64,000 nucleotides of DNA from an uncultured bacterium. Lineage in GTDB: Bacteria > Krumholzibacteriota > Krumholzibacteriia > LZORAL124-64-63. The stretch spans positions 39,742 through 103,741 of the forward strand of contig CAVSZB010000005.1 of assembly GCA_963732385.1 (NCBI GenBank). Reading direction: 5' to 3'. Positions 1,240-31,900 of this stretch are shown piece after piece. The position numbers were made by a program, and so were the translations under genes. The notes under the pieces were generated by a model. That model ran no database searches. It saw only the letters and a program-made list of their open reading frames with translations, and was not told the origin of the DNA. The first letter of the stretch is position 1. Every line of letters begins with the position of its first letter.

Positions 1240-1268
1240 TCGCTGCGGCCCCTTCGTTGTCCGCCCGC

Positions 1269-1745: not shown

Positions 1746-1826
1746 CTTCGACTCCTTCGTGCGCAGCCGCTGCGGGAAGGGCCGGCGCGCGGTCCGTATG
1801 ACCGGCGCGGCCTCGCCGCGCCAGAC

Positions 1827-2480: not shown

Positions 2481-2633
2481 CTCCGGTCCCCCCTCCTGAT
2501 GACGATCTGCAGTCCGGAACGCAGCATCTGACAATCGCCCGCACGGCTCAAGGAAAATTTGGGCGGCGCAACGGTCAGGGCGCCGACAGTTCGAAGCGGA
2601 TCCGGATCTCCTGGTTCTCGGCCAGCCTGACCT

Positions 2634-4715: not shown

Positions 4716-4749
4716 GTCGCTCCCTCCCCCCTGTGCGGACGCCGTGCTG

Positions 4750-7134: not shown

Positions 7135-7156
7135 GCCGCCTCCCTTTTCGTCCGGC

Positions 7157-7930
7157 TCAGGTCCGACTCTGCCGGGCCACCACGACCGTGATGTTGTCGG
7201 GGCCGCCCTCCTTGCGCGCCCGCTCCACGAGGAGCTGGCAGGCGCGCTGGGGCAGGTGCATCGAGACGATGCGCAGGATTTCGGGGTCGTGAATCACTTT
7301 GATCAGGCCGTCCGAGCAGAGCACCAGCGTGGCCCCCTCGGCGAAGATGACCGGGTTGCCGATGTCCGGCTCCACGCCCTCCTCGTTGCCGAGCCAGCGC
7401 GTCAGGACGTTCGACAGGCTCTGCTTGTCGGGCGGCAGCGTCTGGCCCTGGCGCCGGTACTCGCCGCCGAGCGAGTGGTCTTCGGTCAGCGGGAAGAGCT
7501 GCCCGTCGTGCGCGAGATAGGCGCGGCAGTCGCCGATGTGGCCGATCACCAGCTCCTGCCCGCGGACCACGGCGGCCGTGCAGGTCGTGGCCATGTTGGC
7601 GCGCAGCGGACTGGCGGCCGCATCGGCGAGGATGGCCCGGTTGGCCTCGAGCAGCGTCTCGTAGAGGGCCGCCCGCAGGTCGGTCGGCACGCCGGCGGCG
7701 AAGAAACGCTCGCCGAAGGTCTGCACCGCGATCCGGCTCGCCACCTCGCCCGCCGCGTTGCCGCCCACGCCGTCGGCCACGACGAGCAGCAGCGCCCCGG
7801 GCGCGGTGTCGCAGGTGAAGATGCCGACCGCGTCTTCGTTCTTCTCGCGCCGGCAGCCGATGTCGCTGAGGCTGGCGTGCAGGAGTCGCAGGCCGGTGGC
7901 CGGTGACGTCGGCGGGCTGTCGTGGTTCAT
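7157..7930 (-). CDS. PP2C-family Ser/Thr phosphatase
   Basis: 257 aa from the ATG at 7930, with GGAGG upstream. It carries the PP2C hallmarks DIGCRREKNEDA, VVADGVGG, GDCRAY and LCSDGL. The start overlaps the upstream gene's stop as ATGA. Confidence 0.9.
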   Translation of the reverse strand: MNHDSPPTSPATGLRLLHASLSDIGCRREKNEDAVGIFTCDTAPGALLLVVADGVGGNAAGEVASRIAVQTFGERFFAAGVPTDLRAALYETLLEANRAILADAAASPLRANMATTCTAAVVRGQELVIGHIGDCRAYLAHDGQLFPLTEDHSLGGEYRRQGQTLPPDKQSLSNVLTRWLGNEEGVEPDIGNPVIFAEGATLVLCSDGLIKVIHDPEILRIVSMHLPQRACQLLVERARKEGGPDNITVVVARQSRT

Positions 7931-9300: not shown

Positions 9301-9399
9301 GTCCGCGCCGCCCCTCCCCACGGTACGACCAGGTGCGCCGGCGGGAGAATCCCGACCCGCGTGGCGGAGTCTAAGGCGCGGCGGCGGGCATCGCAATCG

Positions 9400-11193
9400 C
9401 TAGTCGACCGGCAGATCGAACTGCTGTGGGCAGCGCATCACCACGGCCGCGGCCAGGAAGCGCGACACGTACTCCCGCGTCTCCTGCGGCAGACACGGCG
9501 CGTCCTTGCGCACGAGGTCCCAGAACTTCCAGCGCGACCACCAGTCGATGTTCATGCGCCGCAGGCAGGCGCGCAGCCCGTTGTCGCCCTTGTTGTAGGC
9601 GGCCACCGCGCACATGCAGTCGTTGGAACCGTAGGCGATCATCAGGTCCTGCAGGTACTGGCAGGCCGCGGTCGTGGCCCGCACCGGGTCCTTGCGCTCG
9701 TCGACGGTGTCGTCGACCCGCAGGCCGTAGTCGCGGGCGGTGCCGCGCATGAGCTGCCACATCCCCATCGCCCCGGCCGGACTCTCGATCTCGGCCTGGT
9801 AGCCGCTCTCGATGAACGGAAGGTAGCAGAAGGCCTGCGGGATCCCCTGCGCCTCGAGCTGCGAGCGCAGCATGTCCAGGTGCGGCCGCGCCCGGCGGAG
9901 CGTGCGCAGGGTGTAGTCGCGCCGGTCGACCGTCCACATCCGCACGGCGCCTTCCACCTCCGCCACCATCGTGCCCGGCAGCGCGTCCAGCCGCGTGTCG
10001 ACCCCGAACTGGGCGAAGATCCGCGACAGCTCCTCTTCCAGGCTGAAGGCCGGCGGCGGCGGGACGGCCGGCGCCGTCTCCTCGGCCGCGGTCACCTCGG
10101 GTTCCGGCGGCGGAGGCGGCGGCGGCCGCCGCCCCTCGCGCAGCTCCTGCAGCAGCGCGAACGGATCGCGGTCCCGCAGCCGATCCCGGTCGATCCGCTT
10201 GGCGGTCTCGCGCAGCGCCTCCCGCACTTCGTCGTCGCTCTGCCGGTCGGGCGGCAGCCGGTCGGCCGCGATCAGCGAGCGGATGGCGATCTCGAACTGC
10301 GCCTTGGCCACGGTGTCGTTGGGCGGCGAAGCGTCGTAGGCCACGAGCGCGTCGTCGAGGCTGCGCCGCGCCTGCTCGACGTACATGTCTTTCGTCCAGA
10401 GCCGCTCCACCCGCTCGCCCGCCGGCCGCAGCGACGGCAGCAGCAGCACCCCCACCAGCACCAGCGCCGCGATCCCCAGCACCATCGCCCCATGCACCGA
10501 AGGCACGGGACACAACTGCACGGTGAAGACGACATCGGCGAACCCGACCCGGTCCCCCACCCGCAGTACCCGCTCCTTGACCGCCTCCCCGTTGACGGAA
10601 GTGCCGTTCCTGCTCCCGGCATCGGTGAGCAGCAGCCGGTCCCCCCGCCGCTCGATCCGCGCATGCACCCCCGAGATCTGCGCCAGCGGCAGCAGCAGAT
10701 CGGCCCCCTCGTCCCGCCCGATCACGCTCAGCTTGCGCGCCAGCAGCAGCGAGGCTCCGCCCGCCCGCGTATCGCGCGACACCAGCCGCAGACAGAGCAG
10801 CCCCGCCGGATCAGGCAGCCGCCGCCCCGCCCCCCGCGCCCGCACCGGCCGCTCGAGCGAGAACACGAACTCCCGCTCCGGCCCCAGCCGCAGCACCGCG
10901 CCGTCCCGCAACGGCGCCCGCCCCACCCGCTCCCCGTCGACAAAGGTCCCGTTGGCGCTCCCCTGGTCCTCGACGAACCAGACCGCCCCCTCCTGCACCA
11001 GCTGCGCATGCCGCCGACTGAGCGCCGCATCGTCGATACAGAGATCGCACCCCGCATCCCGCCCGATCAGCAGCCGCCCCCCGGCCGGCACGCACACGTC
11101 GGCCCCGCCCGCCCGCGGACGCACCCGCGCCCCGCAGGCCGGCCGCGCCCCCGCGCGCCCCCCCGCTCTAAGTCCGCCGGAAGTGTCAGCCAT
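9400..11193 (-). CDS. FHA-FHA-TM-SLT fusion: two N-terminal FHA domains, a TM helix, poly-Pro linker and C-terminal lytic transglycosylase (SLT) domain
   Basis: FHA motifs (GRDAGCDL..SRRHA..GSANGTFV, and IGRDEGADL..SGVHA..GSRNGTSVN), a TM AMVLGIAALVLVGVLLLPSL, a PPPPPPP linker, and the SLT catalytic region ESGYQAEIESPAGAMGMWQLM...YN. Confidence 0.8.
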   Translation of the reverse strand: MADTSGGLRAGGRAGARPACGARVRPRAGGADVCVPAGGRLLIGRDAGCDLCIDDAALSRRHAQLVQEGAVWFVEDQGSANGTFVDGERVGRAPLRDGAVLRLGPEREFVFSLERPVRARGAGRRLPDPAGLLCLRLVSRDTRAGGASLLLARKLSVIGRDEGADLLLPLAQISGVHARIERRGDRLLLTDAGSRNGTSVNGEAVKERVLRVGDRVGFADVVFTVQLCPVPSVHGAMVLGIAALVLVGVLLLPSLRPAGERVERLWTKDMYVEQARRSLDDALVAYDASPPNDTVAKAQFEIAIRSLIAADRLPPDRQSDDEVREALRETAKRIDRDRLRDRDPFALLQELREGRRPPPPPPPEPEVTAAEETAPAVPPPPAFSLEEELSRIFAQFGVDTRLDALPGTMVAEVEGAVRMWTVDRRDYTLRTLRRARPHLDMLRSQLEAQGIPQAFCYLPFIESGYQAEIESPAGAMGMWQLMRGTARDYGLRVDDTVDERKDPVRATTAACQYLQDLMIAYGSNDCMCAVAAYNKGDNGLRACLRRMNIDWWSRWKFWDLVRKDAPCLPQETREYVSRFLAAAVVMRCPQQFDLPVD

Positions 11194-11195
11194 GA

Positions 11196-11627
11196 TCACG
11201 TCGCCGCAGGCAGCGGGAAACACCGGAAGAGGAACCGCGTGCCCCCCATCTGCACCCGGTCACCATCGCGCAGCGCCTGCTCGGTAATCCGCACGTCGTT
11301 CACGAGCGTCCCGTTGGTGGAGTTGAGGTCCCGCAGCACGTACTGCCCCCCCCCGAACACCACCTCCGCATGCCGACTGGAAAGGAACCGATCATCCCCG
11401 ATGATGACATCGCACCCCGCCACCGACCCGAAGCGAAGGGTCCCGGCCGTCAACCGAAAGTCCCGCCCCCGCTGCGCCCCACTGACAGCCACGAGCCACG
11501 CCACCAACTCCTGCCGCCCCACCGGACTCATGAGGACAGCCGTCTTGTCGAGATCGTCCACCGTCATCGCCCCCGGCGCCGCCACCGGCACCACAGGAGG
11601 AGGAGCAGCAGGAGGCGCAGGCGGCAC
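11196..11627 (-). CDS. FHA-domain protein (probably the C-terminal part of a zinc-ribbon/FHA protein)
   Basis: FHA signature FRLTAGTLRFGSVAGCDVIIGDDRFLSSRHAEVVFGGGQYVLRDLNSTNGTLVN. The N-terminus is a Pro/Ala-rich low-complexity stretch. Confidence 0.7.
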   Translation of the reverse strand: MPPAPPAAPPPVVPVAAPGAMTVDDLDKTAVLMSPVGRQELVAWLVAVSGAQRGRDFRLTAGTLRFGSVAGCDVIIGDDRFLSSRHAEVVFGGGQYVLRDLNSTNGTLVNDVRITEQALRDGDRVQMGGTRFLFRCFPLPAAT

Positions 11628-11690
11628 ATAGGCCGGAGGAGCCAGCAGGCGCAGCAGGAGCCGCCGGCGGAATGACCGGCCGCGCCCCGA

Positions 11691-15655: not shown

Positions 15656-15781
15656 CGGAGAAAGCCCCCACACGTGGTGCGAGGAGCTGCCTCACTCTAC
15701 GATCGGCTCCTGAGGTGGAACCGTGTCCTCGCGGCATAAGATCTCTCTGGAGGCCTGCTTGAAACGAACCAGACGATCGGG

Positions 15782-16258
15782 CAGTCGCTGGGGCTGACGG
15801 CAAGGCAGATGCGGATCGGGCGGGTGACGGTGGCCATGCGGTACGAGGCGAAGGGTGGGGAGTATTCGCGGAAGTTCAGCCACTATGAGATCTCGCAGCA
15901 GCTCAAGTTCATCGAGGAGGATGTGGCGCGGTACGATGAGTTTCGGGAGGTGCTCCTGGGAGTGCCGGGGTTGCAGGTGAATCAAGAGTTCGAGGCGAGC
16001 GGGGCGGAGTCGGCGAAGAACGACATGATGATCGAGGCACTGCGGTCGGCCAGACGGAAGGCGGAGGCGCTGGCGGCGGTCGTGGGAGCCAATGTCGGGC
16101 GGGCGATTTCGATCAGCGAGTTCAAGCCCAATCCGACGGATCGCGACATCGACACCGTGGCCTTTCTGCGCGGAGTGCCGTTCCGCGGCCCCGAGCCGGA
16201 CGGGATCGAGATCCGGGGGCGGATCTACGCCGTGTTCGAACTCGAGTAGGCAGCGGGC
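15782..16258. repeat. Direct repeat copy 1 (~477 bp, ~97% identical to 18362..18838; offset exactly 2580 bp)
   Basis: Base-by-base comparison of 15782-16258 with 18362-18838. Mismatches cluster in the first ~30 bp. Copy 1 encodes only the C-terminal 146 aa of the SIMPL protein. Confidence 0.85.
15809..16249 (+). pseudogene. Truncated duplicate of SIMPL/DUF541 gene (3' fragment, no signal peptide)
   Basis: The 146-aa translation is near-identical to residues ~102-247 of the 18086..18829 product. Confidence 0.7.
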
Positions 16259-16327: not shown

Positions 16328-18028
16328 ATGACCGCCGAGGAGCTCGCGAGGCTGATCGAGGCCGGCGAAACGCTTGCGATCGAGTTCAAGGGCGAGGAGC
16401 GTGAGGGCCTCTCGGATGCCGAACTGGTGGAGACGGTTGTCTGCCTCGCCAACAGGCCGGGTGGTGCCGATGCAGCATGGTTGCTCGTCGGCGTCGAGGA
16501 CGACGGCCGCGTGACGGGCGCGCGCCGGCGACATGCCGACCGCACCGATCCCAATAGGCTGCAGGCACTTGTGGCGAACCGGACGAGGCCGGCGCTGTCG
16601 GTGCGAGTTGACGTGATCGATATCGAGGGCAAGCAAGTCGTTGTCATCGACGTGCCTTTCGCCCGCTCGCCGGTCGGGACGACGGATGGCAAGTACGTGC
16701 GCCGGGCGCTGGGCGGCGACGGTCGACCGGCATGCGTGCCCATGCACTTTCACGAGATGCAATCGCACCAGGCCGATCGCGGCCTGCTCGATCATTCCGC
16801 GCTCGCGCTGCCGGACGCTCGCTGGCAGGATCTCGACCCGCTCGAATTCGAGCGTTTTCGCCGCTTCGTGCGCGAGAGTCAGGGCCGAGGCGATGCGAGC
16901 CTCGTGGAGTTGGCGGATATCGAGCTTGCCAAGGCGCTGGGCGCCGTGCAGGCCAACCATGACGTGTCTGCCGTGCACGTGCTTGGCCTGCTGCTCTTCG
17001 GCCGCGAAGAGGCGCTGCGCCGGCTGCTGCCGACTCATGAGGTCGCCTTCCAGGTTCTGTCGGGCCAGAAGGTGGAGGTCAACGACTTCTTCCGCTGGCC
17101 GCTGCTGCGTGTCGTGGATGAGCTGCTGGCGCGATTCCGGGCTCGCAATCGGGAGGAAGAACTGCTGGTCGGCATGCTGCGGATCGCCGTGCCCGATTAC
17201 GCCCCCGCTGCCTTTCGGGAGGGGGCTGCGAACGCCCTGATCCACCGCGACTACACTCGGCTCGGCGCCGTGCATGTGCAGTGGCGCGAGGACAGCATCG
17301 AGATCGCCAATCCCGGAGGCTTCCCGGAGGGGGTCCGCCTCGACAATCTGCTGGTCACCCAGCCGCGGCCCCGCAATCCCCTCCTGGCCGATGCGTTCAA
17401 GCGCGCCGGCATCGTCGAGCGCACCGCTCGTGGCATCGACACCATCTTCCACGAGCAGCTTCGCAACGGCCGTCCGGCGCCGAACTACGGGCGCAGCAAC
17501 GAGAGCGGGGTCGTGCTTGTCCTGCCGGGTGGCAAGGCCAATCTGGCCTTCGCGCGTCTCGTCGCCGAAGAGAGCCAGGCCGCCCGCCCCCTGTCCTTGG
17601 ATGACCTGTTGCTCCTCAACCACCTCTGGCTGGAGCGCCGCCTGAGTACGACCGAGTCCGCAGTGCTGATACAGAAACCCGAGGCGGAGGCGCGGACCCG
17701 CCTTCAGCGCCTGGTCGAAGCGGGACTCGTCGAAGCGCGCGGCGAGCGCAAGGGCCGGACCTGGCACCTCTCGGCTCCCGCCTACCGGCGCCTTGGGGAG
17801 CCTGGCGCCTACGTCCGCCAGCGCGGATTCGAACCGCTCCAGCAGGAGCAGATGGTGCAGCAATTCGTGGAAAAGCACGGTTCCATCAGCCGCGCCCAGG
17901 TGGCCGAGCTTTGCCGGCTCACCCCTCCGCAGGCCTATCGATTGCTCCAACGGCTTGCAAAGAAAGAACTTCTGTCTCGGCTGGGCTCTCGGGGGCGGGC
18001 CGTCCGCTACGGGCTGAAGGCACGATGA
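16328..18028 (+). CDS. AlbA_2 (Schlafen-like divergent AAA) + HATPase_c_4 + wHTH protein (often annotated as a transcriptional regulator or RecG-like)
   Basis: N-terminal ETLAIEFK...LANRPGGADAAWLLVGVEDDGRVTG (AlbA_2), central ANALIHRDY (HATPase_c_4), and a C-terminal winged-helix region. Confidence 0.7.
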   Translation: MTAEELARLIEAGETLAIEFKGEEREGLSDAELVETVVCLANRPGGADAAWLLVGVEDDGRVTGARRRHADRTDPNRLQALVANRTRPALSVRVDVIDIEGKQVVVIDVPFARSPVGTTDGKYVRRALGGDGRPACVPMHFHEMQSHQADRGLLDHSALALPDARWQDLDPLEFERFRRFVRESQGRGDASLVELADIELAKALGAVQANHDVSAVHVLGLLLFGREEALRRLLPTHEVAFQVLSGQKVEVNDFFRWPLLRVVDELLARFRARNREEELLVGMLRIAVPDYAPAAFREGAANALIHRDYTRLGAVHVQWREDSIEIANPGGFPEGVRLDNLLVTQPRPRNPLLADAFKRAGIVERTARGIDTIFHEQLRNGRPAPNYGRSNESGVVLVLPGGKANLAFARLVAEESQAARPLSLDDLLLLNHLWLERRLSTTESAVLIQKPEAEARTRLQRLVEAGLVEARGERKGRTWHLSAPAYRRLGEPGAYVRQRGFEPLQQEQMVQQFVEKHGSISRAQVAELCRLTPPQAYRLLQRLAKKELLSRLGSRGRAVRYGLKAR

Positions 18029-18145: not shown

Positions 18146-18829
18146 ATGCGATCCCTGTCATTCCTGATTCTGCTGGCGTGCATCGTGACAGCCCCGACTC
18201 TGGCTTCGAGCGCCGGGACCATCACCGTCATGGGCGACGCGTCGACGGTGGTCGGCGCGGACCGCGTCATCTGGAAGCTGTCGGTGACGACGAAGGACAC
18301 GAAGCTGGAGCAGGCGACGGCGCAGGCTGATGGGCTGCTGTCCCAGGCGGTGACTATCGGGGAGTCGCTTGGGCTGGCGAAGGAGCAGATGCGGATCGGG
18401 CGGGTGACGATGGCCATGCGGTACGAGGCGAAGGGTGGGGAGTATTCGCGGAAGTTCAGCCACTATGAGATCTCGCAGCAGCTCAAGTTCATCGAGGAGG
18501 ATGTGGCGCGGTACGATGAGTTTCGGGAGGTGCTCCTGGGAGTGCCGGGGTTGCAGGTGAATCAAGAGTTCGAGGCGAGCGGGGCGGAGTCGGCGAAGAA
18601 CGACATGATGATCGAGGCACTGCGGTCGGCCAGACGGAAGGCGGAGGCGCTGGCGGCGGTCGTGGGAGCCAAGGTCGGGCGGGCGATTTCGATCAGCGAG
18701 TTCAAGCCCAATCCGACGGATCGCGACATCGACACCGTGGCCTTTCTGCGCGGAGTGCCGTTCCGCGGCCCCGAGCCGGACGGGATCGAGATCCGGGGAC
18801 GGATCTACGCCGTGTTCGAACTCGAGTAG
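18146..18829 (+). CDS. SIMPL/DUF541 (BP26/Omp28-like) periplasmic protein, full length with signal peptide
   Basis: Signal peptide MRSLSFLILLACIVTAPTLASSAG (ATG at 18146; the ORF frame is open from 18086). The 3' ~450 bp duplicate 15782-16258. Confidence 0.7.
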   Translation: MRSLSFLILLACIVTAPTLASSAGTITVMGDASTVVGADRVIWKLSVTTKDTKLEQATAQADGLLSQAVTIGESLGLAKEQMRIGRVTMAMRYEAKGGEYSRKFSHYEISQQLKFIEEDVARYDEFREVLLGVPGLQVNQEFEASGAESAKNDMMIEALRSARRKAEALAAVVGAKVGRAISISEFKPNPTDRDIDTVAFLRGVPFRGPEPDGIEIRGRIYAVFELE

Positions 18830-20283: not shown

Positions 20284-21075
20284 TCACTCCGGGATCATTC
20301 GGGGCAGCACGCCTCCGGGGCGGCCGAAGTGGGGAACGGTGTCGCCTCCATCCACCGGGTCGGGGCTCACGAAATTTCGTTTCGAAGCTGAGAAGTACAG
20401 GCATCCGGATTCGGCCGGCGGGCGACTCCGCACGAAGGCCTCGGCCTCCTGCAGCGCAGCGATCCAGGTCGCCTTGAGCTGGACGAGGTCGATCGGGACC
20501 GCCAGATCGAGGTGCGCCAGGTCCTCCGGCCGGACCCTGCCCCGTCGTCGGAGCATCTCCAGCAACGAGAGCGGCGCGTAGCCGGGGTCCTTGCCCACGG
20601 CGGCCCACACCAGGGCTCCGAGCGGCAGGACGTTTTCGTGCAGATAGACGGTGTCGAGCAGGTCCCGCGGTTCGTCGCGCCCGGCGAGGGCCAGGACCTT
20701 GTTGGTCGCCAGATCGATCGGGTGGAGCTGGTAACCGAACTCGTCACTGCGCATGACCGGCATGAAACGCCAGGCCGAGTCCTGGGCCCACTCGATTTTC
20801 GTCGCGGTCTCGCCCTGGCAGACGATGGCTCGGATATGGCCCGGCTGGCTGATCTCCGTTTCCACATTGTAGCCGTTCGCCACGAGGGTGCCGTGATCAG
20901 CCGCGAAGGCCGAGGCCACGCGGACGGCGCTGTCGTGGAAGTAGTCGAGGTCGTGGCTGAATCGGTGGGTGTTGGGGGCCACCAGAATGGCCGCCGCACC
21001 GGCGAGATAGCTGTGCTCACTGCGGTTCGTCGCGAGCAGGCGTCCCAGCCGGGCCTGGAAATCAGTCAGCGGCAC
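20284..21075 (-). CDS. AbiEii/DUF1814-like nucleotidyltransferase (type IV toxin-antitoxin toxin-like)
   Basis: N-terminal LAGAAAILV....HRFSHDLDYF resembles the DUF1814 GGTAL...R.S.D.DF motif. It is paired with a small upstream gene. Convergent with rsgA. Confidence 0.5.
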   Translation of the reverse strand: MPLTDFQARLGRLLATNRSEHSYLAGAAAILVAPNTHRFSHDLDYFHDSAVRVASAFAADHGTLVANGYNVETEISQPGHIRAIVCQGETATKIEWAQDSAWRFMPVMRSDEFGYQLHPIDLATNKVLALAGRDEPRDLLDTVYLHENVLPLGALVWAAVGKDPGYAPLSLLEMLRRRGRVRPEDLAHLDLAVPIDLVQLKATWIAALQEAEAFVRSRPPAESGCLYFSASKRNFVSPDPVDGGDTVPHFGRPGGVLPRMIPE

Positions 21076-21333
21076 AGCTGAGCCCCTTTCTCCCAGGCGT
21101 GGCGGCCGCCGTGCCGCATCAGTTGCTCGGCGACCCAGGCCACGTCGGCGGCGCCGATCTCGAGATCAGGCGGACAGGACCAGAAGCAACGGGCGTGATA
21201 GGTGCGATAGGCCCGGCGCGCCTCGCGTACCCGGACCATGGCCCGGGCTTGCGCCGGCGCAAGTTCACGGCGGCTGTTGCGGCCGCCCCGGCTGCCGATC
21301 TGAGCGAGGTACCTGCGGACTGGAGTCTTCATG
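21066..21333 (-). CDS. Small basic protein (~89 aa), putative partner or antitoxin of the AbiEii-like gene
   Basis: Begins MKTPVRRYLAQIGSRGG...; its stop overlaps the downstream gene's start by 10 nt. Local GC is low. An alternative start at 21345 conflicts with the putative -10 box. Confidence 0.4.
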
Positions 21334-21340
21334 GAATATA

Positions 21341-21369
21341 TCATAAGCGGCTTATGATCTAACGTCAAT
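21341..21369 (-). promoter_or_regulatory. Sigma70-like promoter TTGACG-17-TATGAT immediately upstream of the small gene (leaderless transcript predicted)
   Basis: Minus-strand TTGACG at 21369-21364, a 17-nt spacer, TATGAT at 21346-21341, then the ATG 7 nt downstream (21333). It sits in the only AT-rich patch of the region. Confidence 0.35.
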
Positions 21370-21548
21370 GTATGAATATTGTTATATGAATAGTATAGCT
21401 CATTTTCAGAATCCGCTCGCCCCCGTGCGTCGAGGGGGCCACCAGCCCGCGATTCACAGCGGATGGATCGCACAAAGCGTCTGGCGCTGGTCGATTCGGG
21501 GCGGAAGGCGTTAGACTCAGGGAACAACTCTCGCACCGGGAGGAAGCG

Positions 21549-22190
21549 ATGCAGGCCAGTGAGCATGAGGCGATGTGCCAGGCGGTGGTGGACGGGGACG
21601 CGGGGCGGGCCCGGGCGCTTGCGCTGGGGATCGTGGAGGCGCGGGGGGATCTCTTGGCGGCGGTGGAGCACGGTTTCGCCGCCGGGATCCGTCGGGTCGG
21701 GGAGCTCTGGGAGGAGGGCGAGTACTTCCTGCCGGAGCTGGTGCAGGGGGCGGAGGCGATGAAGGCGGCCATGGAGATCCTTAATCCGGCGTTGGTGGCG
21801 GGGCGCGGAGCGGCGCCGGCGCGGGCCGGGGTGGTCATTGGGACGGTGCGGGGGGATCTTCACGATATTGGGAAGGGGCTGGTTGCCACGCTTTTGTCGG
21901 CGCATGGGTTCGAGGTTTACGATCTGGGGAGCGATGTGCCGATCGAGGCGTTCGTGGCGCGGGCCGGGGAGACGGGGGCCAGGATCGTGGCCGCTTCGGC
22001 GCTGTTGACGACGACGATGACGGCGCAGCGGGATCTCGTGCGCGCGATCGCGGAGGCGGGGCTGGCGCCCCGGGTGCGGGTGCTGGTGGGGGGAGCGCCG
22101 ACTTCGGCGGCGTGGGCGGCGGAGATCGGGGCGGCGCATGCGGAGAATGCGCTGCGGGCGGTGGCGGTGGCGGAGGGGTTGGTCGCGTGA
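21549..22190 (+). CDS. Cobalamin-binding corrinoid protein (B12-binding_2 + B12-binding domains)
   Basis: DxHxxG motif (GDLHDIGKGLV) and a Rossmann-like C-terminus; similar to MtbC/MtgC-type corrinoid proteins. Confidence 0.8.
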   Translation: MQASEHEAMCQAVVDGDAGRARALALGIVEARGDLLAAVEHGFAAGIRRVGELWEEGEYFLPELVQGAEAMKAAMEILNPALVAGRGAAPARAGVVIGTVRGDLHDIGKGLVATLLSAHGFEVYDLGSDVPIEAFVARAGETGARIVAASALLTTTMTAQRDLVRAIAEAGLAPRVRVLVGGAPTSAAWAAEIGAAHAENALRAVAVAEGLVA

Positions 22191-23107
22191 GTGGCCGGGC
22201 GGGGCGGAGCGGACTGGGCGACCGTCTGCGGGCGGGGCCGGTGCTGCTGCTCGATGGGGGGCTCGGGTCGTCGTTGATCGAGCGGGGGTTGACGGCCGGG
22301 ATGGCCCCCGATGCCTGGAACCTCGAGCGGCCGGACGATGTCGCGGCGGTGCATCGCTCCTTCGTCGAGGCGGGGAGCGAGGCGATCCACTCGAATACCT
22401 TCGGCGGCAACCGGATCAGGCTGGCGCGCGCCGGGCTGGCCGGGCGGCTGGCGGAGGTCAACGCGGCGGCGGTGGCGCTGGCGCGCGGGGCGGGCGCGGC
22501 GTTCGTGATCGGCGACCTCGGCCCCACCGGGGAGTATCTGCCCCCGGTCGGCGCCGGGGATCCCGAGGCCTGGGCCGCGTCCTCCCTGGAGCAGGCGAAA
22601 GCGCTCGTCGCTGCCGGGGTGGACGGCATCCATCTCGAGACGATGAGCGATCTGCGCGAGGCGCGGATCGGCATCGCCGCGGTGCGCTCACTCTCGACCG
22701 ACCTCCCGCTCCTGGCCTCGCTCACCTTCGAACGCAAGAAGCGGGGGTTCTTCACGGTCATGGGCGACCGGCTCGTTCCCGCCCTGCAGGCGCTGCGTGA
22801 AGCCGGGGCCGACGTGGTCGGGGCCAACTGCACGCTCGGCAGCGACGATTTCCAGGCGCTGGCGGCGGAGGCGCTCTCGGCCGGGTTGCCGATCGTCCTC
22901 CAGCCGAACGCCGGGCAGCCCGAGGTGGTGGCGGGGCGCGTGGTCTACCGGCAGGCGCCCGAGGCGTTCGCCGACGACCTGGCCGCGGTCCTGTCCCTGC
23001 CCGCGGACGGCGGCGGGCGGATCGCGGCGGTGGGCGGTTGCTGCGGCTGCGACGCCCGTTTCATCGCGGCGCTGCGTGGCCGGATTTCCGGGGCGCCGCC
23101 TCCATGA
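22187..23107 (+). CDS. Homocysteine S-methyltransferase-domain protein (Pfam S-methyl_trans; MetH N-terminal-module-like)
   Basis: GTG start overlaps the upstream stop. Motifs LLLDGGLGSSLIERGL, IHSNTFGGN and a Cys-rich GGCCGC near the C-terminus. Confidence 0.7.
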   Translation: MSGRAGRSGLGDRLRAGPVLLLDGGLGSSLIERGLTAGMAPDAWNLERPDDVAAVHRSFVEAGSEAIHSNTFGGNRIRLARAGLAGRLAEVNAAAVALARGAGAAFVIGDLGPTGEYLPPVGAGDPEAWAASSLEQAKALVAAGVDGIHLETMSDLREARIGIAAVRSLSTDLPLLASLTFERKKRGFFTVMGDRLVPALQALREAGADVVGANCTLGSDDFQALAAEALSAGLPIVLQPNAGQPEVVAGRVVYRQAPEAFADDLAAVLSLPADGGGRIAAVGGCCGCDARFIAALRGRISGAPPP

Positions 23108-23775
23108 TCGACGCCCTGTCCATCGAGACCCCGCTGGCGGAGGTGCATCGCCTGCTGGGATACCCCGCGGGACGCGTCGTGCCGGAGCGCGTGCGGTCGC
23201 GGCTGGAGGCGCTCCTGGCGGAGAGCCGGAGCCTGATCGAGGCGCGCGGGGCCCACGCGCGGTTTCCCGTGGCCGAGGCCGACGCCGTGCAGCTGACCCG
23301 GCCGGGGCCCGCGAGCGCTTTGGGGGAATTTGCGCTCGGGCTGGTCACGATCGGCCCGGGGGTCGAGACGCGCGCCGCCGCCATGCTGCGCGCGGGCGAC
23401 ACGAGCGGCGCCCTGTTGCTCGACGCGATCGGATCGGCGGCGGCCGAGGCGGCGGCCGATGCGCTCGGCAGCCTCATCGCGGGCGGGACGGCGGCCGGCG
23501 GTGTCGGGGAGCTGGCGCTTTCCCCCTGCCGCGTCAGTCCCGGCTACGGGGACTGGCCGCTGTTTGCGCAGGAGGCGATCTTCGCGCGTCTCCCCCACGA
23601 GGAACTCGGCGTGCGGCTCCTCCCCTCGCTGCTCATGACGCCACGCAAATCGATCACCTTCGCCCTCTGGTTCGACGCCGCCGGACACGCCCTCGGCGAC
23701 CTGCGCGGCTGCTCGTGCTGCCCGCTGGATCACTGTCCGCGGCAGGATGCACGGCAGAGAGGAAAACCGGCATGA
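23104..23775 (+). CDS. MetH activation-domain-like protein (vitamin-B12-dependent methionine synthase activation region family), low confidence
   Basis: ATGA overlap with the upstream gene. C-terminal CSCCPLDHC. Assigned mainly from position in the corrinoid cluster and size. Confidence 0.4.
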   Translation: MIDALSIETPLAEVHRLLGYPAGRVVPERVRSRLEALLAESRSLIEARGAHARFPVAEADAVQLTRPGPASALGEFALGLVTIGPGVETRAAAMLRAGDTSGALLLDAIGSAAAEAAADALGSLIAGGTAAGGVGELALSPCRVSPGYGDWPLFAQEAIFARLPHEELGVRLLPSLLMTPRKSITFALWFDAAGHALGDLRGCSCCPLDHCPRQDARQRGKPA

Positions 23776-25239
23776 ACTCCGCGTATCGTCCCCTCGTCCG
23801 CGTTCTCGATCCTGAGGAGCCGTCGCGCATCGTCGACGAGGCGATCGCCGTGCTCGAGATCATCGGCGTGCGCGTCGACAGCGAGGCCGGGCGGACCCTG
23901 CTCCTGGACGCCGGGGCTACGGCCGACGGCGACCGGGTGCTGATTCCCGAAACGCTGGTACGGCAGGCGCTGGCCACGGTCCCGCACGCGATCCATCTGT
24001 TCGACCGCGACGGGCGCGAGGCCGCCGATCTGTCCGGGGACCGGGTGCATTTCGACCCGGGCTCGGCGGCGATCCAGGTGCTCGACCCGCGCACCGGGCA
24101 GCGACGCGCAGCCGTCACCGCCGACGTCGTGGACCTGGTGCGTCTCGTCGACGGCCTCCCCCACTACGCGATCCAGTCGACGGCCCTCCTCGCCGCCGAC
24201 GTCCCCGCGGAGGTGGCCGACCGCTACCGGCTCTACCTGGCCCTGCGGCAACGGCCGCAAGCCGATCGTGACCGGCACCTTCCGGACCGACGGCTTCGCG
24301 CCGATGCGCGACCTGCTCGTGGCGGCGCGGGGCGGCGCGTCCGCGCTGGCCGAGCGTCCGCTGGCCATCTTCGACTGCTGCCCGAGCCCGCCTCTGGCCT
24401 GGAGCGATCTCACCTGCCAGGCGCTGCTCGACTGCGCGCGCGCGGGGATCCCGGCCAACCTGATCTCGATGCCGCTGGCCGGCGCCACCGCGCCGGTGAC
24501 GCTGCGCGAGTCGGTGGTGCAGCATGCGGCCGAGAGCCTCTCGGGGATCGTCCTCCACCAGCTGGCGGCGCCCGGCGCGCCGATCTCGTGGGGCGGCGCA
24601 CCGGCGGCGTTCGACATGCGCCACGGGACGACCCCCATGGGGTCGATGGAGACGATGCTCCTGAACCTCGCCAACGCCCAGGTCGGCAAGCACCTCGGCC
24701 TGCCGGTCCACGGGTACCTCGCCCTCTCCGACGCCAAGACTCCCGACTACCAGGCCGGCATGGAGACCGGCATGGGAGCGGTGCTGGCCGCGCTGGCCGG
24801 AATCAACCTCGTCTCGGGACCGGGAATCCTCGACTACATCCTCACCCAGTCGCCCGAGAAGCTCGTGCTCGACCATGAGGCCTGCGGGATGGCGCTGCGG
24901 CTGGTGCGCGGCGTGGCGACGAACCCGGTCGACATGCTCGCCCTCTTCGCCGACCTGGTGCGGACCGGAGAGTTCCTCTCGCATCCGCACACGCGGGCCA
25001 ACTGGAAGTCGGAACTGACCGTGCCCTCGGCCGTGATCGACCGCGACACCTGGGCCGACTGGGAAGCGAAAGGGACCCTCGACGCGGCCGCGCGGGCGCG
25101 GGCGGAAGTGGCGCGCCGACTCGCGCAAGCGCCGGACTCTGCCGCGCCGGATCCGCTCGCGGCAGAGCTCGACCGCATCATGCTGGCGGAGCTCTCCCGC
25201 CATGGGATGACGCGGTTGCCGGGGATGGGGCGGGGTTAG
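23772..25239 (+). pseudogene. MttB-superfamily (non-pyrrolysine) quaternary-amine:corrinoid methyltransferase with an apparent 1-nt frameshift near 24240-24250
   Basis: The N-terminal part MNSAYRPLVRVLDPEE... (frame of 23772) and the C-terminal part ...RKPIVTGTF...HGYLALSDAKTPDYQAG... (frame of 24268) are colinear with MttB. Leu sits at the Pyl position, and there is no in-frame TAG. Confidence 0.65.
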
Positions 25240-25339
25240 CGCGGCGGCGGACGATCGCGGCAAGGCAGGACGACATCCACTACGTTCGCGGCGGCCGCGC
25301 CGGCGGCGGCGGGCGTCAAGACCCCGTGAGCGGAGCGCC

Positions 25340-25933
25340 ATGGCCGGCCTGAAACCTCGCTTCTTCCCCACCCCCGCCGCCTTCCGGGCGTGGCTCGAAT
25401 CGCATCACGCCTCGACCGGCGAGCTGCTGGTCGGCTTCTACAAGAAGGGCTCGGGCAAGCCGAGCATCACCTGGCCGGAGTCGGTCGACGAGGCGCTCTG
25501 CTTCGGGTGGATCGACGGGATCCGGCGGAGCATCGACGAGGTCAGCTACTCGATCCGGTTCACGCCGCGCAGGACCGGGAGCATCTGGAGCAGCGTCAAC
25601 ATCGCGCGGGCCGAGGCGCTCATCGCGCAGGGGCGGATGCGGGCGACGGGGCTGGCAGCCTATGCCGTCAGGAAAGAGAACCGGTCGGGCGTCTACTCCT
25701 ACGATCAGCGCGGCGTGGAGCTGCCTCCCCCCTACGATCGGCTCCTGAAGCGGGACCGGGCGGCGTGGGAGTTCTTCCGGGCGCAGCCGGCCTCGTATCG
25801 CAAGGCGGTCTGCTGGTGGGTGGTCAGCGCGAAACGGGAAGAGACGCGGTTGAAGCGGCTGGAGAAGCTCGCCGAGCATGCGGCCCGGGGGGAGCGGCTG
25901 CCGGCGATGGCGCCGCGAAAACCTGCTCGCTAG
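25340..25933 (+). CDS. YdeI/OmpD-associated (bacteriocin-protection) family protein
   Basis: Motifs EALCFGWIDGIRRSIDEVSYSIRFTPRRTGSIWS and a GRM motif typical of PF13376. Confidence 0.55.
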   Translation: MAGLKPRFFPTPAAFRAWLESHHASTGELLVGFYKKGSGKPSITWPESVDEALCFGWIDGIRRSIDEVSYSIRFTPRRTGSIWSSVNIARAEALIAQGRMRATGLAAYAVRKENRSGVYSYDQRGVELPPPYDRLLKRDRAAWEFFRAQPASYRKAVCWWVVSAKREETRLKRLEKLAEHAARGERLPAMAPRKPAR

Positions 25934-28951: not shown

Positions 28952-31900
28952 ATGGCGAACGAGGTCCACCTCACCGGGCAGAACGTCCTCGACCCGCCCC
29001 CCCGGGACCGCTGGTTCGTCGACTACCTGCCGCTGTGCGGCGGCGACGAACTCACCTACTACGTCGACGGCGAGAGCTATGCCACCGACCTGCACGCCGC
29101 CCTCACCGGGGCCGCGCAGGAGATCTGCCTGACCGGCCTGCACTTCAGCGGCCACTTCCACCTCAAGCGGCCGGGCGGCTGCGATCCCCTGAAGCAGGAC
29201 GATCCCGACACGCTGCAGGAGATCCTGGCGGCCCGCAGCAAGGCCGGCTGCGAGATCTATCTGCTGGTGAACCAGTTCTGGCCGGACGAAGGGAAGCTCG
29301 CCGCCAACTACTGGCGCGCCTACCGGGATCTCGACAAGCTGCTCTGGAAGATGCCCAGCGCGATCCGCGGCACGATCATGGCCTCGGGCGGGATTCCCGA
29401 CTACCTGGAGCGGACGTTCGCCTTCTTCAAGTACCTCAAAGACCACGGCAACGCGGCGAAGATCCACTGCTACACCGACATCCACCAGGGCTACATCTTC
29501 CACAGCAACCACCAGAAGACGATCATCGTCGACCGCAAAACCGCCTTCTGGGGCGGCATCGACCTGACCGACATCGACGGCGACCGTTGGGACGCCGCCG
29601 CCCATACGCCGGGCAACAAGCTGCGCAACTTCGACAAGCCCGAGCGCAACTGGCACGACCTGCAGATGCGGGCCGTCAAGCCGCAGGGCGCCAAAGTCAG
29701 CGCCGTCGACTACGTCTACGCCAACTTCCTGGCGCGCTACAACCACGGCTACCTCTACACGCCGTGGCGCAACGGGCAGGGCGTGCTCGAGGCGAAGCAG
29801 GAGAGCGGCTTCCCCAGGCTGTCGCCGCCCGGCGGCAAGACCGCGCAAGACTACGTGCCGAAGAAGCATTGGTACTACCCGCGGCAGCGCGAGCGCTACC
29901 AGAAGCAGAACGTGCTGGCGTGGCCGCTCGTCCAGGTGGTCCGCTCCATGCCGGCGGGCGCCGGCGGCAACTACGCCCGCAACCAGCATCCGCTCTGGAA
30001 CGAGCTGCGGGTCGCGGTGCAGCCCGACCCGGATTTCCCGCCGCAGTACGTCAACCCCGCGTTCGAGCACTCCGCGCGCGACGCCTACCTCAAGGGGATC
30101 GCCGCCGCCGAGAAGTTCATCTACCTCGAGAACCAGTGGGTGGCCGACGACAGGATCTGGGCCGCGCTGTTCGCCGCCGCCGAGAAGCATGGCGCCGAGG
30201 CCGACTTCCGGCTGCTCGTCGTCCTGCCCAAGAAGTTCCTGGCCGCGGCCGGCTTCGGCAGCGAGCAGACGATCGACCTCAACCCGTACGTGGAGAAGCT
30301 CGCCCGCATCTTCAAGGCCAAGGGGCGGCCGGAGAACTTCGGCCTGTTCAGCATTTTGCAGCCGGCGGCCCACCAGGACCCGGTGCGCGATCAGACGCAG
30401 GTGCCGGAGTGCGTCTGGGACTACATGTACGTGCACTCCAAGCTGCTGATCGTGGACGACTGCTGGGCGCTGCTCGGCTCGGCCAACGCCGGCGGCATCT
30501 CGCTGACCGGCCTGGGCACGACGAGCGAGCCCGACACGGAGCTGTCGGCCATCGTGCTCGACGAACGGGACGACGGCTCGCTCGTCAAACAGCTGCGCAA
30601 GAAGCTCTGGGCCGAGCACCTCGGGGTGGCCGAAGGGAACGTGGCCGACTACAAGACCGGCGCCGACCTGTTCCACAAGCAGGCGAAGGAGCAGGCGTTC
30701 AACACGACGAGCGCCAGGCGCGCGCACTACAACCTGCTCTACTACCCCTCCTCCCCCAAGGCCGCCGCCGCGCCCAACCAGGGGGTGTGGCGCCACCTCA
30801 AGTGGGCGCAGATCCAGCACCAGGTGAAGGCGCGCGTGGCCGACCCCGACGCCATCCACCAGACCTACTACAACCTGAGCGGCCCGCTCACGGCCGTGCA
30901 CATGCTGCTCGAGCGCGATCCGTCGCGGTACGAGAAGCTGGTGGCCAATCTCTACAAGACCGGCGTCGACAAGGCGTGCGACGTGCGCCTGCAAATGCCC
31001 AACCCCCACCTGCACGACGTGCCGGTCCTGGTGCGGCCGCAGGAGCTGGTCGAGTTCGCCGTCGAATCCGAGCACCCGATCCTCGAGGTCGACTGGATGG
31101 TCGGCGGCGCGCTCACCGACAGCGCCAACTGGGTGCTCGACTACCAGGGCTCCGTGTCCGAGACCACGGCCACGGTCTGCTCCAACGGCGACATGGTGCG
31201 GCACCTCAAGAAGACCATCCCCTGCCAGGGCGGCGTCACCCACCTGAGCTGCGAGAGCTACGGCGAGCTGAAGGAGGCGCAGAAGGCGAGCCTGCTGCTG
31301 GGCACCGGCGCGCCGACGAAGCCGCACACGGTGTTCGGCGCGGTCAAGATCGGCACGGCGCTGCTGCTGCAGCGCGACGACGCGGCGGTCGAGCGCGACA
31401 AGGGCGTGGCCAACCGCGACCTGGGCGACCCGAAGTACTGGATCAGCCGCGTGACCGACAACCCGTGGCTGCAGCTCAGGCGCGACCGCGCCTACCCGCT
31501 CTACCCCGGCGTGCTGACCCCGTACGACGTGAAGCACATCCTGGGCGACCGGATGTACGTGCGCCTGCTCCAGCCGCTCGAGTTCAAGTACGACGGCGAC
31601 AAGATCACCCACGTGCGGATGAGCTTCTGGACCTGGGGCCACCGCTCCACGCTCGAGGTGCCGGCCGCGCTGTTCGCCAAGCAGGTCTACGGCTTCTTCA
31701 TCGGCTACTACACCAACGGCGCGCGCGCGCGGGCCGAAGAGAAGTTCCGGCTGCGCGCCGACAGGGTGAAGCTCAAGGCCGGCTGGCAGCGCGACTACGT
31801 GCACGACGACTGCGACGGCAGCAAGCTGACCGTGACCTGCGTCAGCGGCTCGCTGCGGGTGGAGCTGGCGCGGGCCGTCTGGTCGACGTGGGAGGTCGTG

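What the first reader, a model, noticed from the sequence alone, without database searches (positions are those of the whole stretch)
21549..25239. Corrinoid methyltransferase cluster pairing a non-Pyl MttB-family enzyme with a homocysteine-methyltransferase domain; the MttB gene carries a 1-nt frameshift
Gene order is B12-binding protein, S-methyl_trans (Hcy-binding MetH module) domain, MetH-activation-like domain, then MttB-superfamily. The MttB homolog has Leu at the pyrrolysine position, so it is the quaternary-amine (glycine betaine type) subclass. This suggests methyl transfer from a quaternary amine via cobalamin to homocysteine, that is, methionine synthesis from betaine-like donors rather than the usual transfer to THF. 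The frame changes between about 24240 and 24250: frame A reads ...ADRYRLYLAL and frame B reads ...GNGRKPIVTGTF..., and both align colinearly to MttB. This is either an indel error or a recent pseudogene.
Basis: partly seen in the sequence, partly recalled or inferred. Interest (0 to 1): 0.5.

Follow-up and report, generated by a model that had tools for sequence, protein, structure and literature searches.

The report
Cobalamin methyltransferase operon, one-base frameshift
This is a four-gene vitamin-B12-dependent operon that probably makes methionine from homocysteine using a methyl group taken from an unknown compound; the same operon was already proposed in 2022 but never tested, and this copy carries one extra base that breaks one gene.

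Summary
Window 21549-25239 (+) holds four genes joined by 4-nt start/stop overlaps:
- an MttC-like corrinoid protein;
- a MetH-type, zinc-site homocysteine-binding methyltransferase;
- a TM0269-like MetH reactivation-domain protein;
- a non-pyrrolysine MttB-family methyltransferase with Leu (CTC) at the Pyl position.

The MttB gene is split by exactly one extra A at 24250/24251. Two relatives about 94% identical in DNA, and nine other members of its 90% protein cluster, have intact 488-codon genes. The other three genes are intact. dN/dS after the break is 0.16-0.17. So this is an assembly indel or a very recent mutation, and only reads can decide.

The four-gene order recurs in about 62 of the 80 best related loci, across many uncultured phyla, with no other conserved neighbour. 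Williams et al. 2022 (PMC9324843) already described this cluster and proposed corrinoid-dependent methionine synthesis from an unknown methyl donor.

The "glycine betaine type" label is not supported. The four MtgB betaine-binding residues (Y97, R312, H348, F356) correspond here to S, H, a deletion and I.

One extra: the reactivation protein family has an invariant C-terminal CX2CX4C motif that TM0269 lacks.

The parts
21538..21544 (+). Shine-Dalgarno-like GGGAGGA ahead of the first gene of the operon
   Evidence: Read directly from the sequence.
21549..22190 (+). Corrinoid (cobalamin-binding) protein, 213 aa, MttC/MtgC-like, predicted to bind cobalamin through a histidine ligand (His-on)
   Evidence: PF02607 + PF02310. 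Best PDB match is MttC 7xcn_M at 146 bits. DxHxxG (D103, H105, G108), SxL and GG motifs are at least 95% conserved in 62 operon homologues. dN/dS against L005 is 0.05.
22187..23107 (+). Homocysteine-binding, zinc-dependent methyltransferase module, 306 aa (MetH Hcy-domain type); GTG start overlaps the previous stop (GTGA)
   Evidence: PF02574 covers profile 1-281 of 283, E = 5e-52. Best PDB match is the T. maritima MetH Hcy domain 1q7m at 148 bits; BHMT scores 49 bits. C215, C285 and C286 align to the zinc ligands C207, C272 and C273 of T. maritima MetH (identity of those ligands from my recollection of Evans et al. 2004). The DGG, ET and QPNAG motifs are at least 95% conserved in 65 sequences. 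dN/dS is 0.18.
23104..23775 (+). MetH reactivation (AdoMet-binding) domain protein, 223 aa, TM0269-like; ATGA overlap at both ends
   Evidence: phmmer against 1j6r gives E = 1e-4. A family profile against 1j6r gives E = 1e-15, and against MetH activation domains 2e-4 to 0.03. The AF2 model has pLDDT 87.7; the top 19 Foldseek PDB hits are all MetH activation domains, and 1j6r has TM-scores 0.64/0.72. R143-x-S-P-G-Y148 is invariant.
23710..23736 (+). C-terminal C203-x2-C206-x4-C211 motif of the reactivation protein
   Evidence: Invariant in 43 of 43 family members. TM0269 lacks it: its chain ends 8 residues after the aligned region. The region has low pLDDT in the model.
23772..25239 (+). MttB-superfamily (PF06253) non-pyrrolysine methyltransferase gene, 488 codons once one base is removed; as given it is split into two frames
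24250..24251 (+). The frameshift: AA where relatives have a single A (a one-base insertion)
   Evidence: Alignments to L004 (94.5% nt identity), L005/L006, L001 and L002. It is the only coding indel in the window's disfavour across 10.7 kb of synteny with L005.
24724..24726 (+). CTC (Leu318) at the position of pyrrolysine in MttB
   Evidence: phmmer alignment to 7xcl and the codon read. In the clade this position is Leu in 37 and Val in 5 sequences.

Best explanation
The locus is a self-contained, four-protein, cobalamin-dependent methyl-transfer system built like a MetH whose folate module has been swapped.

Inferred mechanism:
1. The MttB-family TIM-barrel enzyme takes a methyl group from an unknown donor. 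The donor is probably a quaternary ammonium or similarly activated methyl compound, and probably not glycine betaine. The methyl goes onto Co(I) of the small corrinoid protein.
2. The MetH-type zinc protein transfers the methyl from methyl-Co(III) to homocysteine, giving methionine.
3. The TM0269-like AdoMet-binding protein rescues oxidised Co(II) by reductive methylation. Its conserved CX2CX4C tail may act as a metal or Fe-S electron entry point.

Shown here: domain identities, catalytic motifs, gene order, translational coupling, and wide conservation of the four-gene module. Inferred: donor, acceptor, direction of transfer, and the role of the Cys motif.

In this window the MttB gene carries one extra A at 24250/24251. 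This is either a consensus error of the assembly or a very recent inactivating mutation. It is not a programmed frameshift and not an old pseudogene.
For: - Domain and motif evidence for all four proteins.
- 4-nt start/stop overlaps at all three gene junctions.
- The same order, B12-HcyMT-Act-MttB, sits immediately upstream in about 62 of the 80 best related loci from GTDB species representatives. These include Eisenbacteria, Acidobacteriota/Thermoanaerobaculia, Myxococcota, Krumholzibacteriota, Latescibacterota, Gemmatimonadota, Zixibacteria and Omnitrophota.
- The order also appears in L001-L003 and L005.
- Starting from distant reactivation-protein homologues (33-36% identity) leads back to the same operon in L086 and L087.
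- Clustering of all flanking ORFs finds no other conserved neighbour: no pterin-binding protein, RamA or transporter.
- An apparent Act-MttB fusion exists (P0028, 710 aa).
- The HcyMT is far closer to MetH Hcy domains (148 bits) than to BHMT (49 bits) or SAM/SMM-type homocysteine methyltransferases (66 bits).
- Williams et al. 2022 proposed the same function independently.
- Frameshift: it is the single base that differs from relatives. Nine 488-aa members sit in the 90% cluster. dN/dS is 0.24 overall and 0.16-0.17 downstream of the break. Window-lineage changes are 17 nonsynonymous to 24 synonymous. The other three genes are intact.
Against: - No experiment exists for any member of this cluster.
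- The donor is unknown.
- About 18 of the 80 related loci lack the full upstream trio. Some of these are truncated contigs, and some have only the corrinoid gene adjacent.
- No SAM or cobalamin riboswitch lies upstream that would tie the operon to methionine or B12 regulation.
- Pfam PF02965 is just under threshold on the single sequence.
- The window-lineage N:S ratio (17:24) is somewhat higher than in the two sister lineages (9:21 and 5:17), so slight relaxation cannot be excluded.
- I could not retrieve the source record or any reads.
Confidence: 0.6

Rival explanations
1. One reading: the MttB homologue is a glycine betaine (MtgB-type) methyltransferase, so the operon is a B12-dependent betaine:homocysteine methyltransferase.
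For: Leu sits at the Pyl position, as in MtgB. Characterised non-Pyl members of the superfamily act on quaternary amines. The corrinoid protein scores 193 bits on the NCBIfam MtgC model.
Against: The four betaine-binding residues shown by mutagenesis and a crystal structure (Y97, R312, H348, F356; PMC13080624) correspond to S98, H313, a gap and I356. S98 and H313 are invariant in this clade. R312, which is conserved in all characterised acidic-quaternary-amine enzymes, is His here. The protein is closer to Pyl-MttB than to MtgB (184 against 169 bits). The MtgC score is far below its cut-off of 310. No betaine transporter or catabolic gene is nearby in 80 loci.
Confidence: 0.1
2. The frameshift is genuine, so the operon is non-functional in this strain (a recent pseudogene).
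For: The extra base is in the sequence as given, and the source's own gene caller produced a 323-aa fragment. The insertion is not in a long homopolymer (A becomes AA). No other obvious frameshift appears in the 64-kb window by GC3 frame analysis. The window-lineage N:S ratio is slightly raised.
Against: This is the only lesion in the operon, and the other three genes are intact with dN/dS of 0.05-0.58. dN/dS downstream of the break is 0.16-0.17. All close relatives are intact. The sister MAG contig (L005, Flye-style name 'contig_13222') shows four 1-nt insertions within 330 nt of another gene, so this type of assembly does carry indel errors.
Confidence: 0.4
3. The PF02574 protein methylates a thiol or selenol other than homocysteine, or the system runs in the opposite direction, or it passes methyl groups to another corrinoid client such as HgcA.
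For: Zinc-thiolate chemistry is not specific to homocysteine. A 2025 paper speculated that MttB homologues feed HgcA.
Against: The full-length match is to MetH Hcy domains, with the DGG, ET, QPNAG, NC and GGCCG motifs conserved across 65 operon members. No hgcAB or other acceptor gene is conserved nearby. Methionine's thioether is a poor methyl donor (established chemistry).
Confidence: 0.08
4. The break is a programmed +1 ribosomal frameshift in the MttB gene.
For: Both halves are well conserved and colinear.
Against: None of the relatives has the extra base. There is no slippery or stop-codon context at CTG CGG CAA CGG. No structured RNA was detected.
Confidence: 0.01

Closest known systems
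Gene cluster described in Ca. Electryoneota MAGs and 'diverse bacteria' by Williams et al. 2022, Environ Microbiol (PMC9324843)
   Same: It has the same four components: a non-Pyl MttB/MtgB homologue, a homocysteine S-methyltransferase, a corrinoid protein and an activation protein. Its MttB clade was reported as separate from MtgB and MttB but closer to MttB, which matches the scores. The proposed function is the same: corrinoid-dependent methionine synthesis from an unknown donor.
   Different: This is another host lineage, probably Eisenbacteria (81% identity to an Eisenbacteria MAG). This copy has a 1-nt insertion in the MttB gene. I could not check their Table S4 because the supplement is not held.
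Cobalamin-dependent methionine synthase MetH, with the split Thermotoga maritima system TM0268 + TM0269
   Same: The Hcy-binding zinc module, the cobalamin-binding module predicted to bind through histidine, and the AdoMet-binding reactivation module are all homologous to it. The best structural and sequence matches are T. maritima MetH (1q7m) and TM0269 (1j6r).
   Different: The methyltetrahydrofolate (pterin-binding) module is absent and an MttB-family TIM barrel stands in its place. All modules are separate polypeptides. The reactivation protein has an extra CX2CX4C tail.
MtgBCDE of Ruegeria pomeroyi / Phaeobacter inhibens (Mausz et al. 2025, PMC12478193)
   Same: A PF06253 methyltransferase, a small corrinoid protein and a PF02574 homocysteine module share one cobalamin carrier. 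This links demethylation of a methylated amine to methionine synthesis.
   Different: In that system the methyl group flows through a pterin-binding MtgD and tetrahydrofolate, the genes are scattered, and reactivation is assigned to RamA/DUF1638. Here there is no MtgD, RamA or DUF1638 within the operon or within 7 kb either side of the MttB gene in 80 related loci. Instead there is a TM0269-like protein in a tight operon.
MtgB/MtgC/MtgA glycine betaine:THF system of Desulfitobacterium hafniense, and the MtpB, MtcB, MtyB and MthB relatives
   Same: A non-Pyl MttB-superfamily enzyme methylates a cognate corrinoid protein, with Leu at the Pyl position.
   Different: The betaine-binding residues are not conserved. 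The acceptor module is a homocysteine domain rather than a methylcorrinoid:THF methyltransferase.
Betaine-homocysteine S-methyltransferase (BHMT)
   Same: The net chemistry would be similar: a methylated amine plus homocysteine gives methionine. It belongs to the same PF02574 zinc fold.
   Different: BHMT is cobalamin-independent and binds betaine itself. The protein here scores only 49 bits against BHMT but 148 bits against the MetH Hcy domain, and 171 bits against the NCBIfam BHMT model, whose cut-off is 338.

Membership tests
MttB superfamily (Pfam PF06253) | Full-length PF06253 TIM-barrel domain | tested here: met
   Two colinear matches, profile 29-171 (71 bits) and 205-488 (188 bits), joined by removing one base. 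The repaired 488-aa protein is 60-93% identical to more than 100 full-length homologues.
Pyrrolysine trimethylamine methyltransferase MttB (TIGR02369 equivalog) | In-frame UAG (pyrrolysine) at the active-site position, and a score above the equivalog cut-off of 525 bits | tested here: not met
   The codon is CTC (Leu) at 24724-24726. The fragment scores of 79 + 240 bits are well below 525. The PYLIS_3 hit of 25.9 bits is below its gathering score of 38 and only reflects coding homology.
MtgB glycine betaine:corrinoid methyltransferase | Betaine-binding residues Y97, R312, H348 and F356 (PMC13080624) | tested here: not met
   The aligned residues are S98, H313, a deletion and I356. S98 and H313 are invariant in 42 clade members.
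MetH-type homocysteine-binding module (PF02574) | Full-length domain with the three zinc-ligand cysteines and the DGG / ET / PNAG motifs | tested here: met
   PF02574 covers 1-281 of 283. C215, C285 and C286 align with C207, C272 and C273 of T. maritima MetH. These residues are conserved in at least 95% of 65 operon homologues. Substrate specificity itself cannot be tested with these tools.
Methyltransferase-cognate corrinoid proteins (PF02607 + PF02310) | B12-binding cap plus Rossmann domain with the DxHxxG...SxL...GG motif | tested here: met
   The scores fall below the equivalog cut-offs for MtgC, MtbC and MtaC, so no specific subtype is assigned.
MetH reactivation domain / TM0269 family (PF02965) | Activation-domain fold with the AdoMet-binding RxxxGY motif | tested here: met
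   The single sequence is just below the Pfam threshold (23.5 against 25 bits). The family profile hits 1j6r at E = 1e-15 and MetH activation domains at 2e-4 to 0.03. The AF2 model's top 19 PDB matches are all this fold. R143-x-S-P-G-Y148 is invariant. That RxxxGY is the AdoMet motif comes from my own knowledge of E. coli MetH.
Four-gene MttB-homologue / HcyMT / corrinoid / activation cluster (Williams et al. 2022) | All four genes adjacent on one strand | tested here: met
   The genes are at 21549-25239 with 4-nt overlaps. The same arrangement is found in about 62 of 80 related loci.
MtgBCDE split MetH/GBT demethylase (roseobacters) | Pterin-binding MtgD plus RamA/DUF1638 reactivation partners | tested here: not met
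   No such domains appear among the Pfam-annotated ORFs of the window or among conserved neighbours in 80 loci. The rest of the genome was not available.

The most novel reading that the evidence does not exclude
This operon family is a distinct, folate-independent, cobalamin-dependent methionine synthase. It would be widespread in uncultured soil and sediment phyla. Its methyl donor would be none of the known MttB-superfamily substrates, given the invariant Ser98 and His313 pocket residues. Its dedicated reactivation protein would carry a [4Fe-4S]-type CX2CX4C site, letting it receive the reducing electron directly instead of through flavodoxin or a RamA-type activase.
Probability: 0.25. Interest if true: 0.65.

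Novelty: new member of a known kind. Interest (0 to 1): 0.35.

Why it matters
If the predicted chemistry is right, many uncultured bacteria can make methionine with B12 but without methyl-tetrahydrofolate. These include Eisenbacteria, Thermoanaerobaculia, Krumholzibacteriota, Latescibacterota and others. They would draw the methyl group from an environmental methylated compound. That would add a route to methionine and SAM budgets, a new B12 demand in soils and sediments, and a new substrate class for the MttB superfamily.

This particular locus adds little beyond another example. It does supply a clean set of orthologues for expression, a negative result for the betaine motif, and the observation of a conserved Cys motif on the reactivation protein. 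The frameshift matters mainly as a caution about assembly quality.

Tried and rejected
- **Programmed frameshift.** Rejected: all relatives lack the extra base, and there is no slippery site or RNA structure.
- **Old pseudogene or degraded cluster.** Rejected: there is a single lesion, and dN/dS is low both upstream and downstream of it.
- **Riboswitch upstream (SAM or cobalamin).** None was found with a permissive Rfam search of 20800-25600.
- **Conserved neighbours hinting at the donor.** I looked for transporters, MetF, a pterin-binding protein and RamA. None was found in 80 loci. A few Krumholzibacteriota share a pyridine-nucleotide-disulphide oxidoreductase, an isochorismatase and a radical-SAM gene downstream.
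- **Retrieving the source record, to learn the sequencing technology and how the gene was called.** Three exact look-ups failed. The cluster look-up showed only a 433,921-bp NCBI/ENA contig and a called 323-aa fragment.
- **Other frameshifts in the window.** A GC3 frame-plot found none obvious, but the method is coarse.
- **P0090 (728 aa) as a second Act-MttB fusion.** Rejected: it is a frameshift read-through artefact.
- **Supplement of Williams et al. (Table S4).** It is not held.
- **My first tblastn MttB query.** It was mis-framed in its C-terminal part. The MttB columns of that table were ignored, and MttB positions were taken instead.


Full report
**1. What is in the sequence**

The window is about 70% G+C. 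On the + strand between 21549 and 25239 there are four consecutive genes.

- **Gene 1 (21549-22190, 213 aa).** It carries PF02607 + PF02310. Its best solved relative is the trimethylamine corrinoid protein MttC (7xcn_M, 146 bits), and it has a DxHxxG motif (GDLHDIGK).
- **Gene 2 (true start 22187, end 23107, 306 aa).** It is a full-length PF02574 domain, E = 5e-52. Its best solved relative is the homocysteine domain of Thermotoga maritima MetH (1q7m, 148 bits). It is far weaker against BHMT (49 bits). The three cysteines that align with the T. maritima MetH zinc ligands C207, C272 and C273 are present.
- **Gene 3 (23104-23775, 223 aa).** It scores 23.5 bits on PF02965, just below the gathering score of 25, and hits TM0269 (1j6r) at E = 1e-4. 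A profile of 43 family members raises the 1j6r match to E = 1e-15 and also finds the activation domains of Thermus, human and E. coli MetH, at E = 2e-4 to 0.03. An AlphaFold model (pLDDT 87.7) has MetH activation domains as its top 19 PDB matches, with 1j6r first at TM-scores 0.64/0.72.
- **Gene 4 (23772-25239).** It is an MttB-superfamily gene read in two frames. The first frame covers PF06253 positions 29-171 and the second covers 205-488. On TIGR02369 the two pieces cover positions 8-150 and 156-465.

All three junctions between genes are 4-nt overlaps (GTGA, ATGA, ATGA), and a GGGAGGA precedes the first ATG.

**2. The frameshift**

I aligned the gene to intact homologues: L004 (94.5% nt identity), L005/L006 (about 94%), L001 and L002. 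The window has exactly one extra base and no other gap in 1467 nt. It reads CTGCGGCAACGG where the others read CTGCGGC-ACGG. Removing one A at 24250/24251 restores a 488-codon gene reading ...LYLALRHGRKPIVTG..., the same length as its relatives.

- Over 10.7 kb of synteny with L005, this is the only coding indel that disfavours the window.
- Nine other members of the 90%-identity protein cluster are full length. The source's gene caller recorded only the 323-aa C-terminal fragment, on a 433,921-bp contig.
- Selection looks intact. dN/dS against L004 and L005 is 0.24 overall and 0.16-0.17 in the part after the break. Changes specific to the window lineage are 17 nonsynonymous to 24 synonymous, far from neutral expectation, though a little higher than in the two sister lineages at 9:21 and 5:17.
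- Genes 1-3 are intact, with dN/dS of 0.05, 0.18 and 0.58.
- A coarse GC3 frame-plot shows no other obvious frameshift in the 64 kb.
- The sister MAG contig (L005, 'contig_13222') has four 1-nt insertions within 330 nt of another gene, so indel noise occurs in this kind of assembly.

The lesion is therefore real in the sequence as given. It is either a consensus error or a very recent mutation. I lean about 60:40 towards an error, but only reads can decide. A programmed frameshift is excluded, because orthologues lack the base and no slippery site or RNA element is present.

**3. Is the pairing meaningful?**

Yes. I scanned one genome per GTDB species with an alignment of the MttB clade. This gave 572 relatives, and the best 80 loci are all MAGs. 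They come from Eisenbacteria (81% identity, the closest named taxon), Acidobacteriota/Thermoanaerobaculia, Myxococcota, Krumholzibacteriota, Latescibacterota, Gemmatimonadota, Zixibacteria, Omnitrophota and others.

- In about 62 of these 80 loci, corrinoid protein, HcyMT and reactivation protein lie immediately upstream in the same order and strand. Several of the remainder are contig ends.
- Metagenome contigs L001-L003 and L005 show the same arrangement.
- Starting instead from distant homologues of gene 3 (33-36% identity) leads back to the same four-gene operon in L086 and L087.
- Clustering all flanking ORFs of the 80 loci finds no fifth conserved gene: no pterin-binding protein, RamA, MetF or transporter.
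- One apparent Act-MttB fusion exists (P0028).
- Across the operon homologues, the HcyMT zinc cysteines and the DGG/ET/QPNAG motifs are at least 95% conserved, as are the corrinoid DxHxxG/SxL/GG motifs.

**4. Mechanism**

The parts amount to a MetH whose folate module is replaced by an MttB-family barrel.

1. The donor methylates Co(I) on the corrinoid protein, catalysed by the MttB homologue.
2. Methyl-Co(III) methylates zinc-bound homocysteine, catalysed by the PF02574 protein.
3. Occasional Co(II) is repaired by AdoMet-dependent reductive methylation on the TM0269-like protein.

TM0269 is the protein required to reactivate T. maritima MetH (Huang et al. 2007, cited). All of these steps are inferred from homology and gene context. 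None has been tested.

**5. Which donor?**

Leu at the Pyl position is confirmed: it is the CTC codon at 24724-24726, aligned to X334 of 7xcl. In the clade this position is Leu in 37 and Val in 5 sequences.

However, the four residues shown by mutagenesis and a ligand-bound structure to bind betaine in MtgB are not kept. Y97, R312, H348 and F356 (PMC13080624) align here with S98, H313, a one-residue deletion and I356. S98 and H313 are invariant in the clade. R312 is reported as conserved in all characterised acidic-quaternary-amine enzymes, and it is His here. The protein also scores higher against Pyl-MttB (184 bits) than against MtgB (169 bits). The donor is therefore unknown, and betaine is unlikely.

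**6. Comparison with what is known**

Williams et al. 2022 (PMC9324843) described exactly this cluster in Ca. Electryoneota MAGs and 'diverse bacteria'. Their cluster has a non-pyrrolysine MtgB/MttB homologue, a homocysteine S-methyltransferase, a corrinoid protein and an activation protein. They placed the MttB homologue in an uncharacterised clade nearer MttB. They hypothesised corrinoid-dependent methionine synthesis from an unknown methyl donor.

The roseobacter MtgBCDE system (PMC12478193) is a functional cousin. It routes methyl groups through a pterin-binding MtgD and uses RamA/DUF1638, neither of which accompanies this operon.

Full-text searches found no biochemical study of this cluster. 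The locus is thus a new member of a known, still hypothetical, kind.

**7. An extra observation**

Every one of 43 reactivation-protein homologues ends with C-x2-C-x4-C followed by [R/P][Y/H/F]R; in the window these are C203, C206 and C211 (nt 23710-23736). TM0269 lacks this tail. The same spacing binds the [4Fe-4S] cluster of ThiC (PMC4389238). The model is of low confidence in this region. A metal or Fe-S site that feeds the reactivation electron is an attractive but untested idea.

**8. Context**

The operon sits inside a type VI secretion locus. That locus includes TssK, TssJ, kinases and FHA proteins, PAAR, DUF2169, a PLD-like effector, VgrG, ClpV, TssF, TssC and TssA. An AbiEii-like toxin pair lies next to the operon. 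No one-carbon, methionine or B12 genes were found elsewhere in the window.

**Verdict**

Interest is moderate to low for this instance. It is higher for the operon family, which remains uncharacterised.

Noticed in passing
window 23710-23736 (C203, C206, C211 of the reactivation protein): An invariant C-terminal CX2CX4C-[R/P][Y/H/F]R motif is present in all 43 aligned reactivation-protein homologues and absent from TM0269. The spacing is the same as the ThiC [4Fe-4S] motif. It may be a metal or Fe-S site.
   Followed up: partly
window 1-11690 and 26589-51227: The methyltransferase operon is embedded in a type VI secretion locus. The locus includes TssK, TssJ, two PpkA-like kinases, three FHA proteins, PAAR, DUF2169, a 1029-aa PLD-like (HKD motif) putative effector, VgrG, ClpV, TssF, TssC and TssA. 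The same synteny is seen in the sister MAG L005.
   Followed up: partly
window 15772-16071 and 18352-18651: A 300-nt direct repeat (97% identical) duplicates the 3' part of a SIMPL/DUF541 gene on either side of a Schlafen/AlbA_2 + HATPase_c_4 gene (16328-18028). The adjacent 12-16 kb stretch has G+C of 0.54-0.57 against about 0.70 elsewhere. This could be an insertion or duplication, or an assembly artefact.
   Followed up: partly
window 20284-21420: An AbiEii-like nucleotidyltransferase toxin (263 aa, - strand) overlaps an 88-aa partner gene. An AT-rich intergenic region follows, containing the palindrome ATCATAAGCGGCTTATGAT, directly upstream of and divergent from the operon.
   Followed up: no
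window 24724-24823: A sub-threshold Rfam PYLIS_3 match (25.9 bits against a gathering score of 38) starts exactly at the Leu codon that replaces pyrrolysine. It reflects coding-sequence homology to mttB, not a functional PYLIS.
   Followed up: yes
L005 18909-19245 (homologous to window 29366-29699): The sister MAG contig has four separate 1-nt insertions within 330 nt of the PLD-like gene, splitting it into 205-aa and 752-aa calls. This is evidence of indel noise in these assemblies.
   Followed up: partly
P0028 (710 aa; named 'MAG: trimethylamine methyltransferase family protein [Candidatus Eisenbacteria bacterium]' by NCBI): An apparent natural fusion of the reactivation protein (residues 1-214) with the MttB homologue (residues 227-706). 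P0090 (728 aa) looks like a similar fusion but is a frameshift read-through.
   Followed up: partly
window 23497 / L005 10394: There is a 39-nt in-frame length difference in the reactivation gene: 223 aa in the window and in several relatives, against 236 aa in L005. It falls in a Gly/Ala-rich loop that is of low confidence in the model.
   Followed up: no
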